A DNA stretch of 64,000 nucleotides from a virus, in the IMG/VR virus record IMGVR_UViG_3300035436_000036. One strand, 5' to 3'. The notes beneath the pieces are model-generated. The model was not told the origin of the DNA, ran no database searches, and saw nothing but the letters and a program-made list of their open reading frames with translations. A program made the translations under genes and the position numbers. Shown one piece after another: positions 32,410 through 37,496 of the stretch. Positions within the stretch are counted from its first letter, which is position 1. The number at the start of each line of letters is the position of its first letter.

Positions 32410-32438
32410 GTTGACTTAAATTGGAAAAAGAGTATAAA
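32410..32438 (+). promoter_or_regulatory. Promoter for tRNA cluster 2 (TTGACT N17 TATAAA)
   Basis: ~10 nt upstream of tRNA-Asp 5' end. Confidence 0.6.
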
Positions 32439-32447
32439 TAAAACTCT

Positions 32448-32523
32448 GGACTCGTAGCTCAATTGGGAGAGCACCGCACTGTCACTGCGGAGGTAGTGGG
32501 ATCGAAACCCATCGAGTTCGCCA
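32448..32523 (+). tRNA. tRNA-Asp (GTC)
   Basis: Cloverleaf by eye. Confidence 0.7.
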
Positions 32524-33098: not shown

Positions 33099-33269
33099 AA
33101 GTTTATGGAGTCGTGAACACGGTAATGGTCGATCGCAGCGTACAGGGGTGTTCGGGGGCGATTGGCAACTCCGCCAAGATGAGGGAAACGCTAGGGCAAT
33201 GTCAGACGGTGCCTGCGTAGCGGGTGTCGTGAGGTGCTGGGTAACCGGCGGGGTCTGACACGAGTTTAT
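33099..33269 (+). ncRNA. Unassigned structured RNA segment inside tRNA operon (possible stable small RNA like T4 species 1/2 RNAs, or degenerate tRNAs)
   Basis: ~170 nt between tRNA-Ser and tRNA-His; GTCAGAC...GTCTGAC inverted repeat; both halves start with AGTTTATGG like tRNA leaders; no convincing cloverleaf. Confidence 0.3.
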
Positions 33270-33345
33270 GGTGGTCGAGGTGTTAATGGATACATGCTGG
33301 ATTGTGAATCCGGAGTTGCGGGCTCGATACCCGTCGATCACCCCA
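33270..33345 (+). tRNA. tRNA-His (GTG) with G-1
   Basis: Extra 5' G paired to discriminator C; T-loop CTCGATA. Confidence 0.65.
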
Positions 33346-34093: not shown

Positions 34094-34357
34094 ATGATTA
34101 CTCTGTATGAGTATTTCGGTAAAGAGTGTGGTGGTCTAGATTGGAGCGATAGTGCTCTCTATGATCTATACGTATTCGAGTCTACTGGTAAAGGTAGCAT
34201 AAAGCCGAATAACGGATATGCATATGGCAAACACACTATAGATATAACAATCTCTATGTGGAAAGAGGACTTAGATAAGACCCTCTGGCTACATGAATTA
34301 TATCAAGATCCTAACCTACCAGATTGGTGGTTGGATAAAGTTTTTAAGGGTCGGTAA
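34094..34357 (+). CDS. Hypothetical protein (87 aa)
   Basis: ORF between tRNAs; W-rich C-terminus. Confidence 0.4.
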   Translation: MITLYEYFGKECGGLDWSDSALYDLYVFESTGKGSIKPNNGYAYGKHTIDITISMWKEDLDKTLWLHELYQDPNLPDWWLDKVFKGR

Positions 34358-34432
34358 AGCCGGTGGCTCCGGCAGTCAGACTGTAAATCTGATCCGTTCG
34401 CGGGGGAGGATCGATACCTCACTGACCCACCA
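34348..34432 (+). tRNA. tRNA-Tyr (GTA), type II
   Basis: Anticodon stem TCAGA/TCTGA, loop CTGTAAA, long variable arm; 5' end overlaps stop of upstream ORF. Confidence 0.6.
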
Positions 34433-34885: not shown

Positions 34886-35033
34886 TTTAGGAATGTGAAT
34901 ATGAGAAGCGAGTCTGCAGAATGTGTGATGTATGTACCCGACACTCCTTTAAACAGGGCTGCGTTTACAGACGAAACGGTTTTGGCAGAGATATATAAAG
35001 TTTCGAATATTAAAATTGTGTTTAAAGATAATG

Positions 35034-35108: not shown

Positions 35109-35397
35109 AGTTTTGTAGCGCCTAAGGCATAGCCCGAAGGATAACCAAAGGTTCACCGTATTGGGGGCTCGCTACAAAAAAATATAGACCACCTCGGCTG
35201 AACCCGTGAAGTGATAAAGACATTGTTGCAACATTGTTTTTATCTGGGAAGATTGCAACGTCCGGAAGTAAGCAATCAAGGCACACTGTAGGTGGTCACT
35301 CACATTGACTCCGACCTCTGGTTTTAAGTCCCGACCTGAAATGACAGGCGGTAACATATGTGTCCTAGGAAACGCATTTGTTTGGGAGTTTTTATTT

Positions 35398-35759: not shown

Positions 35760-35836
35760 CTCAACTGGATAGAGCTCTTGATTACGAATCAAAAGGTTGC
35801 AGGCTCGAATCCTGCCGAGGGCACCAATTAACTGTT
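35760..35836 (+). tRNA. tRNA-Arg (ACG)
   Basis: Cloverleaf by eye. Confidence 0.65.
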
Positions 35837-35844
35837 GACATTAA

Positions 35845-35873
35845 CAGCTATAAGTACTATAAAGAATTATGAA
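35845..35873 (+). promoter_or_regulatory. Promoter (TTGACA N17 TATAAA) upstream of tRNA-Asn
   Basis: sigma70-like spacing. Confidence 0.5.
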
Positions 35874-35879
35874 GTTTAT

Positions 35880-35954
35880 TCCCCAGTAGCTCAGTGGTAG
35901 AGCAGGTGACTGTTAATCACCTGGCCGGTGGTTCGAACCCATCCTGGGGAGCCA
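35880..35954 (+). tRNA. tRNA-Asn (GTT)
   Basis: Cloverleaf by eye. Confidence 0.7.
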
Positions 35955-36381
35955 ATTTCAGTTAAGCAGTACCGTCTGCTGAACCAACGTATATACCCTA
36001 ACAGATTATACGTTGTAAACAAAACGGATGAAGGAAGTTCCTGTGGCGACCAAGCGATTGGGGGAAGATAGGAACGTAAAGAGCGAAATTACCGACTGTA
36101 GCGAGTCGACACCTCAGTAGCCTTCTTATTACTAACACCGCCGCCCGTATGGTGTATAACAATCCCGGGCCTAGTTTCGATATCGGCCTCGACGGAGGCT
36201 GTAAGAAGTGTGACTGAATAATCCCCTTGTCAGTGGGGATAAAGTAGACTCGGGGATTGGTCTCCCGCTCAACCGGCAAACGAGTCGTAGGCTGAGATTA
36301 CAGACTGTAATTGACTGGGCCTTGGAGGTATAACTGAATCCTCCCACTTCGCTTTTATAGATATTATGTTAGGAGATTATT
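35955..36381 (+). ncRNA. ~425-nt non-coding, comparatively GC-rich region downstream of tRNA array (candidate structured RNA)
   Basis: No credible ORF on either strand (only a 93-aa antisense ORF of poor composition); multiple local inverted repeats (e.g. CAGTGGGGATAAAG...GGGATTGGTCTCCC, CACCGCCGCCCGTATGGTG). Confidence 0.25.
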
Positions 36382-36972
36382 ATGGTAGAAACTGTTTCAA
36401 TTAAACGTCATTGGGATAAGTACGATGACAATACTCACGAACTGCCTGAGGTTGTTCCTAGTGTAGTATTCAAGACTCGTGTCCGCGATGACTCAATCGA
36501 AGGCCCCAATCCTTACCGCTGGGAAGACAAGACTAGCTTTGACTACTTCGGTGGCAAGCGTGTCATCCTCTTCTCACTCCCTGGCGCATTCACCCCCACA
36601 TGTTCCACATACCAGCTTCCGGATTTCGAGAATAGCTACGAAGCATTCAAGAGCTTTGGTATCGATGAGATCTATTGTGTCTCTGTCAACGATGCCTTTG
36701 TGATGAACTGCTGGGCTCAACAGCAAGGTGTAGAGAACGTCAAGATGATTCCAGATGGTTCTGGCAAATTCACTCGCAAGATGCAGATGAATGTCTACAA
36801 AGACAACCTTGGGTTCGGTGAGCGCTCATGGCGTTATGCATGCCTTATCGAGAATGGTAAGATCCTCAAGTGGTTCATTGAACCAGGTATGGAAGACAAT
36901 TGCGAAGAGGATCCATACGGCCGTACGGATCCAGCAAAGATCCTCGAGTATGTCGAGGCGTTCTATGGCTGA
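36382..36972 (+). CDS. Peroxiredoxin (Prx5-like, 1-Cys/atypical 2-Cys)
   Basis: PGAFTPTCS peroxidatic-Cys motif. Confidence 0.85.
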   Translation: MVETVSIKRHWDKYDDNTHELPEVVPSVVFKTRVRDDSIEGPNPYRWEDKTSFDYFGGKRVILFSLPGAFTPTCSTYQLPDFENSYEAFKSFGIDEIYCVSVNDAFVMNCWAQQQGVENVKMIPDGSGKFTRKMQMNVYKDNLGFGERSWRYACLIENGKILKWFIEPGMEDNCEEDPYGRTDPAKILEYVEAFYG

Positions 36973-37346: not shown

Positions 37347-37458
37347 TCTGCTATCATACAATGTTCCCAGTAGCAACATTACTGTAACATATGGGCCTAC
37401 AACGAGTAGGCAAGGGTATACGATCCCAACTGACTTCAGTTTCGATCAGTATTAATTA

Positions 37459-37490
37459 GAGGGGGTGGCTTCGGTCACCCCCTTTTTTTA
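37459..37490 (+). terminator. Rho-independent terminator
   Basis: GGGGGTGGCTTCGGTCACCCCC + TTTTTTT. Confidence 0.8.
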
Positions 37491-37496
37491 TAAATA
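37489..37496 (+). promoter_or_regulatory. T4-type late promoter TATAAATA driving the 37.5-43.1 kb module
   Basis: Exact TATAAATA 6 nt upstream of ATG 37502, immediately after terminator. Confidence 0.5.

What the first reader, a model, noticed from the sequence alone, without database searches (positions are those of the whole stretch)
35955..36381. 425-nt gene-free, GC-elevated segment immediately after the tRNA array
In a genome where genes otherwise overlap or abut, this is the longest non-coding stretch. It has visibly higher GC than its surroundings and multiple local inverted repeats (CACCGCCGCCCGTATGGTG; CAGTGGGGATAAAG...CCCCTTGTCAGTGGGG). Large ornate phage ncRNAs such as GOLLD, ROOL and HEARO are frequently found adjacent to tRNA genes. 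A novel structured RNA, or a leader/riboswitch for the peroxiredoxin gene, is plausible.
Basis: inference. Interest (0 to 1): 0.55.

Follow-up and report, generated by a model that had tools for sequence, protein, structure and literature searches.

The report
Structured RNAs ending a phage tRNA array
The "empty" 427 bases after the last tRNA of this T4-like phage encode three folded RNAs, one a known family (manA, recently reported to self-assemble into RNA cages) and two uncatalogued, and all of them sit among tRNA genes like extra beads rather than acting as a switch for the next gene.

Summary
The stretch 35955-36381 has no protein gene. It is not GC-elevated overall (0.466 against 0.459 for the window).

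It is a mosaic of conserved RNA modules on the + strand:
- **manA, 36185-36354.** A full-length match to Rfam RF01745 (64.8 bits, gathering 55.2). The Rfam structure is supported by compensatory changes in 19 related contigs.
- **"Module A", 36030-36125.** A three-way-junction RNA with no Rfam match. About 100 lake or viral metagenome hits give 60 distinct sequences, with 98% of pairs kept and 13 pairs showing double changes.
- **"Module Z", 35964-36027.** A small pseudoknot, plus a conserved hairpin at 36136-36154.

In relatives these modules lie on the tRNA strand, 6-16 nt from tRNAs or from each other. One example is tRNA-Met-7-A-14-manA-9-tRNA-Ala. manA is followed by a tRNA, not an ORF, in 13 of 36 complete contexts. 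tRNAs also flank two of the first three published marine manA seed sequences.

My best reading is that these are stand-alone RNAs, co-transcribed with the tRNA array and cut out by tRNA processing. This resembles T4 rnaC/rnaD and GOLLD. A riboswitch for the peroxiredoxin gene is less likely. The function of module A is unknown.

The parts
35880..35954 (+). tRNA-Asn(GUU), the last tRNA called in the array and the upstream neighbour of the region
   Evidence: ARAGORN. Rfam tRNA, 69.2 bits.
35964..36027 (+). Module Z, a small pseudoknotted RNA element. H1 is 35966-35969/35976-35979, and its loop CCGU (35972-35975) pairs with ACGG (36024-36027). H2 is 35985-35993/36007-36015.
   Evidence: Found in 14 distinct versions in related tRNA arrays, usually 3-9 nt after one tRNA and 9 nt before the next. 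One pseudoknot pair switches U-A to G-C in 4 sequences, and H2 covaries. Overall 96.6% of cells are paired, against 19-48% when partners are slid. MFE z = -3.0. No Rfam match.
36030..36125 (+). Module A, an uncatalogued three-way-junction RNA. P1 is 36030-36034/36121-36125. P2 is 36037-36044/36068-36075, with an internal CCAA-GCGA-UUGG hairpin. P3 is 36093-36097/36104-36108, with loop GUAGCG. The junction strands GUAAAGAGCGAAAUUAC and ACACCUCAGUAGCC are nearly invariant.
   Evidence: Alignments A2 and A5. Among 60 distinct sequences, 98.3% of cells are paired and 13 of 25 pairs show changes on both sides; slid controls give 31-46% paired. The covariance model R1 finds exactly one copy per contig at 97-138 bits. 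There is no Rfam match even at E<=10 on a 117-nt query. The 30-aa ORF over it is broken in homologues.
36136..36154 (+). Conserved hairpin CACC-GCCGCCCGUAU-GGUG within the linker 36126-36184
   Evidence: In L070 the same loop sits in a different stem (CAAGC/GCUUG). There it directly follows module Z with no module A between them. The linker is 96% identical in L061 and L087. On its own it is not more stable than shuffles.
36185..36354 (+). manA RNA (Rfam RF01745). The whole model is matched, but the central multi-hairpin domain is reduced.
   Evidence: cmscan gives 64.8 bits against a gathering score of 55.2, E = 3e-14, model positions 1-192. The same family is called at the same place in 16 related contigs. 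When the Rfam structure is projected on 19 sequences, 22 of 47 pairs change on both sides and 87% of cells are paired, against 38-50% when slid.
36371..36972 (+). Shine-Dalgarno AGGAG (36371-36375) and the peroxiredoxin-type gene (ATG at 36382), the downstream neighbour
   Evidence: ORF list. Pfam Redoxin 5.9e-24 and AhpC-TSA 8.3e-12.
32433..32440 (+). TATAAATA, the T4 late-promoter consensus, 7 nt upstream of the first tRNA of the large array. Inferred start of the transcription unit.
   Evidence: Pattern search. Assigning it as a promoter is an inference from knowledge of T4-type phages.
37458..37485 (+). The only strong intrinsic-terminator-like hairpin downstream of the array (12-bp stem followed by a T run). 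Inferred end of the unit.
   Evidence: No terminator-like site lies between the array, the RNA modules and the peroxiredoxin gene. A second TATAAATA follows at 37489.

Best explanation
The stretch is the RNA-gene tail of the phage's tRNA operon. It encodes three separate structured RNAs in series: module Z (a small pseudoknot), module A (a ~96-nt three-way junction) and a manA RNA (170 nt).

I infer that all three are transcribed with the 21 upstream tRNAs of the array that starts at 32448 as one long late transcript, which then runs on into the peroxiredoxin gene. I also infer that they are released as stand-alone RNAs by the enzymes that trim the flanking tRNAs (RNase P, RNase E/Z). T4's stable RNAs rnaD and rnaC occupy the same position, at the end of that phage's tRNA cluster.

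manA would then act as a free RNA particle. A 2026 preprint reports that manA RNAs self-assemble in vitro into decamers and 60-mer cages. On this reading it is not a ligand-sensing leader of the peroxiredoxin gene.

Module A has no known function. Its nearly invariant junction strands suggest a specific ligand, protein or RNA partner, and manA may be that partner: in most contexts that hold both, module A lies upstream of manA, often only 14 nt away.

**What is shown:** the identities of the modules, their structures, their conservation, and their bead-like placement among tRNAs.

**What is inferred:** co-transcription, processing into separate RNAs, action as free RNAs, and cage formation by this particular variant.
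For: **Identity and structure**
- manA matches the full Rfam model above the gathering score, and its helices covary in relatives.
- Module A has strong covariation in all three helices across 60 distinct sequences.
- Module Z has a covarying pseudoknot pair.

**Placement**
- Of 75 distinct module A contexts, 71 have a same-strand tRNA within 1.5 kb and none has an opposite-strand tRNA. 53 have a tRNA or manA within 40 nt.
- Of 40 manA contexts, 38 have a same-strand tRNA within 1.5 kb. 13 of the 36 that are not cut by a contig end are followed by a tRNA at 9-15 nt. 22 are preceded by module A or a tRNA at 8-16 nt.
- Examples:
  - L069: tRNA-Asn-8-Z-9-tRNA-Met-7-A-14-manA-9-tRNA-Ala.
  - L107: tRNA-Met-8-manA-10-tRNA-Ala.
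  - L011: manA-13-tRNA-Gly-16-peroxiredoxin.

**Modularity**
- The modules are shuffled between contigs, and genes can be inserted between them, for example a 158-aa ORF in L004 and L008.

**Transcription unit**
- No terminator-like site lies between the array and the peroxiredoxin gene. TATAAATA lies just before the array at 32433, and a strong terminator lies at 37458.

**Precedents**
- T4 has tRNA-Arg-1-rnaD(119 nt)-6-rnaC(139 nt) at the end of its tRNA cluster.
- GOLLD sits inside the tRNA arrays of relatives L011 and L070.
- GOLLD and ROOL are cage-forming RNAs found near phage tRNA islands (PMC12286853).
- manA RNAs form decamers and a 60-mer cage through kissing loops (bioRxiv 10.64898/2026.07.01.735769).

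**Generality**
- tRNAs flank manA in two of the first three seed sequences of the original marine alignment.
- That alignment file holds 14 tRNA T-arm 11-mers, while most of the other motif files hold none.
Against: - There are no expression data, so co-transcription, processing and stability are all inferred.
- In the window itself manA ends only 27 nt before the peroxiredoxin start codon. The Shine-Dalgarno sequence lies 16 nt after the closing helix. About ten related contigs have the same order, so a cis effect on that gene is not excluded.
- Where module A directly precedes manA there is no tRNA between them to direct cleavage. The two could therefore remain on one RNA.
- This clade's manA lacks two of the three central hairpins of the Rfam consensus. 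Whether it can still oligomerise is unknown.
- The contigs found through the module A pattern are a biased sample, and many are closely related. The counts therefore overstate the number of independent observations.
- The promoter assignment rests on an 8-mer.
Confidence: 0.6

Rival explanations
1. manA, alone or together with the upstream modules, is a cis-acting leader or riboswitch. It would control translation or read-through into the peroxiredoxin gene, as the Rfam 'Cis-reg' label and the first reader suggest.
For: - manA was described as a riboswitch candidate in 5' UTRs (PMC2864571).
- In the window it ends 27 nt before the ATG. The 3' arm of its last hairpin (AAUCCUCC) is partly complementary to the Shine-Dalgarno region (GGAGAUU) (read directly from the sequence).
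- A peroxiredoxin ORF is the next gene after manA in about ten related contigs.
Against: - The downstream neighbour is a tRNA at 9-15 nt in 13 of 36 complete contexts.
- In L011 a tRNA lies between manA and the peroxiredoxin gene.
- The distance from manA to the gene ranges from 15 to 177 nt with no conserved expression platform. In L063 and L110 a different ORF follows, and in L106 an ORF and then a tRNA-Gly.
- The peroxiredoxin gene occurs in 48 other viral contigs (L012-L059) with no manA. Its link to manA is therefore explained by its position next to the end of the array.
Confidence: 0.2
2. Module A, and possibly module Z, is a processing element rather than a functional product. It could be a self-cleaving ribozyme or a nuclease recognition structure that helps cut the polycistronic tRNA transcript. 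The HDV-like theta ribozymes that follow tRNAs in gut phages would be the precedent (from my own knowledge of the literature).
For: - It lies 6-7 nt after tRNAs, or 6-18 nt before them, in many contigs.
- Its junction strands are nearly invariant, as in catalytic cores.
Against: - No Rfam ribozyme family matches, even at E<=10.
- I could not thread the sequence by eye onto a hammerhead core (no CUGAUGA...GAAA) or onto the nested double pseudoknot of HDV-like ribozymes.
- The closing stem P1 covaries as a normal helix. This suits a stable product better than a cleaved site.
Confidence: 0.08
3. The conservation acts at the DNA level. The modules would be cassette boundaries, recombination or homing sites, or promoters, and would explain why they are shuffled between arrays.
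For: - The modules move as units and are far more conserved than the neighbouring gene. Identity is 94-97% at the DNA level, against 73-76% amino-acid identity for the peroxiredoxin protein in the same contigs.
- Module A looks as if it was inserted into module Z when the window is compared with L070.
Against: - Compensatory base-pair changes, strand-specific G-U pairs (an invariant G-U in P2 of module A) and a constant orientation relative to the tRNAs are signatures of an RNA, not of a DNA site.
- The promoter scan is at chance level.
Confidence: 0.05
4. The stretch encodes a small protein, for example the 30-aa ORF at 36028-36120 or the 93-aa minus-strand ORF at 35998-36279.
For: The ORFs exist. 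The 30-aa reading frame stays open in many homologues because the sequence is so conserved.
Against: - Homologues carry 1-nt indels, in-frame stops, and a 27-nt insert that contains a stop. The start codon is lost in many of them.
- The variable positions follow base-pairing rules, not codon positions.
- The 93-aa ORF spans two modules whose spacing varies from 14 to more than 600 nt between contigs.
Confidence: 0.01

Closest known systems
manA RNA motif (Rfam RF01745; Weinberg et al. 2010, PMC2864571)
   Same: Window 36185-36354 matches the whole model above the gathering score. It has the 5' hairpin with the GACG loop, the closing helix, the GUGACUGAAUAA and UAAAGU strands, and the terminal GGAGG...AAUCCUCC hairpin. 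The helices covary in relatives. The setting is a T4-like phage.
   Different: - Two of the three central hairpins of the consensus are reduced to a short strand.
- The phage is not of the cyanophage type. Its capsid protein is closest to phages of Stenotrophomonas, Methylophilales and Pelagibacter. The related contigs come from viral and environmental metagenome collections.
- Here the RNA sits in a tRNA array, often with tRNAs on both sides, which does not fit the 'cis-regulatory 5' UTR' label.
T4 stable RNAs rnaC and rnaD (species 1 and 2)
   Same: They are two small non-tRNA RNAs (139 and 119 nt) placed 1-6 nt after the last tRNA of a T4-type tRNA cluster, on the tRNA strand, with unknown function. 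Z, module A and manA have the same architecture here.
   Different: No sequence or structure similarity was detected. Model R1 gives only chance-level scores on the T4 region, and rnaC/rnaD match no Rfam family. The resemblance is one of position, not of descent.
GOLLD and ROOL RNAs
   Same: These are phage-borne structured RNAs of unknown function found near or inside tRNA islands. They form RNA-only cages (PMC12286853). GOLLD occurs inside the tRNA arrays of relatives L011 and L070.
   Different: They are much larger (over 400-800 nt) and unrelated in sequence. Neither is present in this window.
Riboswitch aptamers with three-way junctions
   Same: Module A is a ~96-nt three-way junction. 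Its helices covary and its junction strands are nearly invariant, which is the usual look of a ligand- or protein-binding RNA core.
   Different: It matches no Rfam family. It is not consistently upstream of any gene, and its neighbours are tRNAs or manA. No expression platform is evident.

Membership tests
manA RNA (RF01745) | Full-length match to the curated covariance model at or above its gathering score | tested here: met
   64.8 bits against 55.2, E = 3.3e-14, model positions 1-192 of 192, not truncated.
manA RNA (RF01745) | Consensus helices supported by compensatory changes among homologues | tested here: met
   With the Rfam structure projected on 19 related sequences, 22 of 47 pairs change on both sides and 87.3% of cells are paired, against 38-50% when partners are slid. 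No shuffle in 500 reaches the observed values.
manA RNA (RF01745) | Central domain of three small hairpins, with loops GUGGUG and ACCA in the consensus | tested here: inconclusive
   Only the first hairpin is kept (GGA-UUGGUC-UCC). The other two are deleted in the model alignment, although an AACCGG/AACCAG strand remains. The preprint 10.64898/2026.07.01.735769 says that peripheral helices differ among manA variants.
manA RNA (RF01745) | Located in the 5' UTR of a protein-coding gene (the cis-regulatory label) | tested here: inconclusive
   Met by position in the window, 27 nt before the peroxiredoxin ATG. In 13 of 36 complete related contexts, however, the next feature is a tRNA at 9-15 nt.
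manA RNA (RF01745) | Homo-oligomeric closed assemblies (decamer or 60-mer) formed through kissing loops | not testable with these tools
   Reported for other manA variants in vitro. Testing it here needs SEC or cryo-EM of this sequence.
   No such match in the window at gathering thresholds, nor at E<=10 in 35800-36500. GOLLD is found only in relatives L011 and L070.
Riboswitch (generic) | Consistent position upstream of functionally related genes, with an expression platform | tested here: not met
   For both manA and module A the neighbours are tRNAs, each other, or varied ORFs. No terminator-like site follows either.
Riboswitch (generic) | Specific ligand binding | not testable with these tools
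   Needs in-line probing or ITC.
T4-type stable RNAs of tRNA clusters (rnaC/rnaD) | Non-tRNA RNA gene on the tRNA strand, a few nt from the tRNAs of a T4-like phage's tRNA cluster | tested here: met
   for the window and its relatives. for the T4 layout. One search shows that the window is from a T4-like phage.
T4-type stable RNAs of tRNA clusters (rnaC/rnaD) | Sequence or structure homology to rnaC or rnaD | tested here: not met
   Model R1 scores at most 7.9 bits on the T4 region with filters off. Only module A was tested; Z and manA were not.
Any Rfam 15 family (for module A and module Z) | Any covariance-model match | tested here: not met
   No match at E<=10 on the 117-nt module A query. 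Nothing but tRNA, manA and chance-level hits in 35800-36500.

The most novel reading that the evidence does not exclude
Module A is a new class of structured RNA that works together with manA. In the likely ancestral layout (tRNA-7-A-14-manA-9-tRNA) no tRNA separates the two, so they would stay on one ~290-nt RNA. Module A would then be a tethered partner or cargo of a self-assembling manA particle, much as tRNAs are covalently linked to GOLLD cages. More broadly, manA would need relabelling from 'cis-regulatory riboswitch candidate' to a tRNA-operon-borne, particle-forming phage RNA. It would then form one functional group with GOLLD and ROOL.
Probability: 0.15. Interest if true: 0.75.

Novelty: new variant of a known kind. 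Interest (0 to 1): 0.5.

Why it matters
manA has been an orphan "riboswitch candidate" since 2010. A 2026 preprint reports that it builds RNA-only cages in vitro but says nothing about its biology.

The data here show that in a whole clade of T4-like phages manA is a resident of tRNA arrays, often with a tRNA on each side. Some of the original marine seed sequences show the same thing. GOLLD and ROOL, the other cage-forming RNAs, share this genomic habitat, and GOLLD occurs in the arrays of relatives.

This gives a concrete and testable biological frame. These would be phage RNAs made with the tRNAs, cut out by tRNA processing, and acting as particles.

The analysis also delivers two conserved RNA motifs that are absent from Rfam. 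Module A has the kind of covariation support that normally justifies a new family. Its fixed position upstream of manA makes it a candidate partner.

If the modules turn out to be mere spacers or a leader, the finding reduces to one more manA instance.

Tried and rejected
- **Coding potential.** All four ORFs in the stretch are broken in homologues. Rejected.
- **A disrupted gene.** The 158-aa ORF that lies between the modules in L004 and L008 leaves no trace in the window. It is an insertion there, not a loss here.
- **GOLLD, ROOL, HEARO and every other Rfam family, for the 5' half.** No match.
- **Homology of module A to T4 rnaC/rnaD.** None.
- **GenBank phages.**
  - The 427-nt stretch has no blastn match in 50,697 records.
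  - The 12-kb surroundings match only through tRNAs.
  - A marine manA seed sequence also has no match, so I could not inspect manA neighbourhoods in cultured cyanophages.
- **More divergent module A copies.**
  - Two further degenerate patterns added only three viral contigs.
  - Model R1 found nothing in the 48 other peroxiredoxin-bearing contigs.
  - The family as sampled is therefore narrow and highly conserved. Part of the junction conservation is built in by the search pattern. However, contigs found independently through the peroxiredoxin gene carry the same 17-mer.
- **Ribozyme cores.** Threading module A by eye onto hammerhead and HDV-like cores gave no fit.
- **Kissing-loop covariation.** I looked within manA and between manA and module A. 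There is too little variation to decide.
- **GC elevation.** Not supported.
- **Promoter and terminator scan.** At chance level, apart from the hairpin at 37458.

Full report
**What is at the coordinates**

ARAGORN and Rfam place 24 tRNAs in the window, all on the + strand. The last is tRNA-Asn at 35880-35954. The next convincing gene is a 196-aa Redoxin/AhpC-TSA protein starting at 36382, so the gap is 427 nt.

The window comes from a T4-like myovirus. It encodes a tail sheath, portal, gp23-type capsid protein, gp46-like nuclease subunit, RnlA-type RNA ligase, gp43-type polymerase and gp41-type helicase. The capsid protein is closest to phages of Stenotrophomonas (72%), Methylophilales (68%) and Pelagibacter (66%), not to cyanophages. 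No GenBank phage matches the stretch or its 12-kb surroundings, except through tRNAs.

**Checking the observation**

- The stretch is non-coding. Its four mechanical ORFs carry stops, frameshifts or insertions in homologues, or span modules whose spacing varies.
- It is not GC-elevated as a whole. GC is 0.466 against 0.459 for the window, the 57th percentile. Only the two structured cores reach 0.51-0.52.
- Both quoted inverted repeats are real and belong to conserved elements.
- The whole stretch folds better than shuffles, with z = -2.77.

**The 3' part is a known RNA**

Rfam calls manA (RF01745) at 36185-36354, with 64.8 bits against a gathering score of 55.2, over the full model. I fetched relatives through the peroxiredoxin gene and later through DNA patterns. 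manA is called above threshold at the equivalent place in 16 related contigs.

I projected the Rfam structure on 19 of these sequences. 22 of 47 pairs change on both sides. 87% of cells are paired, against 38-50% when the partners are slid. The clade's version lacks two of the three small central hairpins of the consensus.

**The 5' part holds uncatalogued RNAs**

blastn against the relatives showed that the stretch is a mosaic of separately conserved blocks. In L008, for example, a 158-aa ORF lies between two of them.

*Module A (36030-36125).*
- An exact 17-mer from it finds 42 true viral contigs. Other patterns add 3 more. A 21-mer finds 56 metagenome stretches and one contig of a 'Bacteroidetes' MAG.
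- RNAalifold and pair counts give a three-way junction. P1 has 9 pairs, 8 of them with double changes. P2 has 2 covarying pairs and an invariant G-U. P3 has 3 covarying pairs.
- On 60 distinct sequences, 98.3% of cells are paired, 13 pairs show double changes and 188 cells are compensatory. Slid controls give 31-46% paired.
- Some members carry an extra hairpin inside P2.
- A covariance model finds exactly one copy per contig at 97-138 bits and nothing else.
- Rfam has no match, even at E<=10 on a 117-nt query.

*Module Z (35964-36027).*
- It has two hairpins. The loop of the first pairs with an ACGG tail.
- One pseudoknot pair switches U-A to G-C in four sequences, and the second hairpin covaries and varies in length.
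- In L070, module Z is directly followed by the conserved hairpin found in the window at 36136-36154. The loop is the same and the stem differs. In the window, module A lies between the two, as if inserted.

**Context**

I mapped tRNAs, module A, manA, Z and ORFs in all contigs. The modules always lie on the tRNA strand and at tRNA-like spacing. Examples:
- L069: tRNA-Asn-8-Z-9-tRNA-Met-7-A-14-manA-9-tRNA-Ala.
- L090: tRNA-Asn-7-A-12-tRNA-Met-8-manA-9-tRNA-Ala.
- L107: tRNA-Met-8-manA-10-tRNA-Ala.
- L011: manA-13-tRNA-Gly-16-peroxiredoxin.

The counts are as follows.
- Of 75 distinct module A contexts, 71 have a same-strand tRNA within 1.5 kb and none has an opposite-strand one.
- Of 40 manA contexts, 38 have a same-strand tRNA within 1.5 kb.
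- Of the 36 manA contexts not cut by a contig end, 13 are followed by a tRNA at 9-15 nt.
- 22 manA contexts are preceded by module A or a tRNA at 8-16 nt.

The peroxiredoxin gene is the next gene only where manA happens to be the last element of the array. In those cases the distance is 15-177 nt.

In the window there is no terminator-like site between the array and the peroxiredoxin gene. A T4 late-promoter consensus (TATAAATA) lies 7 nt before the first tRNA of the array, at 32433. A strong terminator lies at 37458-37485, followed by another TATAAATA.

**Comparison with what is known**

- manA was described in 2010 as a riboswitch candidate in 5' UTRs of marine bacteria and cyanophages (PMC2864571).
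[quoted passage not shown] It does not mention tRNAs (10.64898/2026.07.01.735769).
- GOLLD and ROOL also form cages and lie near phage tRNA islands (PMC12286853). GOLLD sits inside the arrays of relatives L011 and L070.
- T4 itself has two stable RNAs of unknown function, rnaD and rnaC, 1 and 6 nt after the last tRNA of its cluster. They are positional analogues, not homologues, of module A.
- The tRNA link is not peculiar to this clade. In the original manA seed alignment, two of the first three sequences have tRNAs in their flanks. That file holds 14 tRNA T-arm 11-mers, while most other motif files hold none.

**Interpretation**

The best-supported reading is that the stretch is the RNA-gene tail of the tRNA operon. 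It holds three stand-alone structured RNAs, made with the tRNAs and released by tRNA processing, and manA acts as a free and possibly self-assembling RNA.

The riboswitch or leader reading for the peroxiredoxin gene is not excluded for the window's own arrangement, but it does not explain the family-wide context.

Module A's function is unknown. Its nearly invariant junction strands point to a specific partner. It lies upstream of manA in most contexts that hold both, often with only a 14-nt spacer and no tRNA between, which makes manA a candidate partner.

Expression, processing and assembly are all inferred, and nothing here measures them.

**Verdict**

The largest piece belongs to a known family. 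The new elements are two uncatalogued motifs and a context that argues for reclassifying manA. Interest is moderate.

Noticed in passing
window 34348-34432 (+): Probable 25th tRNA, missed by both ARAGORN and the Rfam tRNA model. It is a tRNA-Tyr(GUA) with a long variable arm, an encoded CCA and an unusual T-loop (GGAUCGAUACC). It folds as a cloverleaf (z = -2.4). Its anticodon arm is identical to that of the tRNA-Tyr genes called in relatives L110, L085 and L106. Tyr is otherwise missing from the window's tRNA set.
   Followed up: partly
L011:2568-3039 and L070:1962-2428 (minus strand): GOLLD RNA (RF02032; 179 and 184 bits, gathering 150) sits inside the tRNA arrays of two relatives, next to tRNA-Ala, and each contains an embedded tRNA. 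At the corresponding place (35109-35397) the window has a 289-nt spacer with conserved blocks but no GOLLD match.
   Followed up: partly
window 32433-32440 and 37489-37496 (+); terminator 37458-37485: The T4 late-promoter consensus TATAAATA occurs 7 nt before the first tRNA of the large array, and again right after the only strong terminator. This suggests one late transcription unit covering the array, the RNA modules, the peroxiredoxin gene and two or three small ORFs.
   Followed up: partly
window 35241-35300, 34886-35032, 33100-33270: Further non-tRNA spacers of the array are conserved in relatives at 87-98% identity, and one has a GC of 0.585. None has an Rfam match. They may be more passenger RNAs of the array.
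   Followed up: partly
L011:3593-3667 and L079:4739-4812: Relatives carry a tRNA with anticodon CUA, which ARAGORN labels 'Pyl'. It is an amber-suppressor-type tRNA within the array. The window has none.
   Followed up: no
L001:4609-4687, L065:11000-11078, L085:1010-1088, L090:274-352, L076:9385-9463: A 79-nt 'tRNA-Met(CAU)' with the anticodon at position 37 recurs next to module A or manA in relatives. ARAGORN calls it, but it does not appear among the higher-scoring Rfam tRNA hits. It may be an atypical tRNA or a tRNA-like element.
   Followed up: no
L008:4067-4543 and L004 (158-aa ORF between module A and manA): A gene for a signal-peptide-bearing, glycine-rich, beta-barrel-like protein is inserted between the two RNA modules in some relatives. 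This shows that genes can be dropped into the RNA array.
   Followed up: no
Supplement manA.sto of PMC2864571 (first sequences): In the published seed alignment the flanking tRNAs of marine manA RNAs are marked as AUG...STP coding stretches. This may be why the tRNA association was not discussed.
   Followed up: partly
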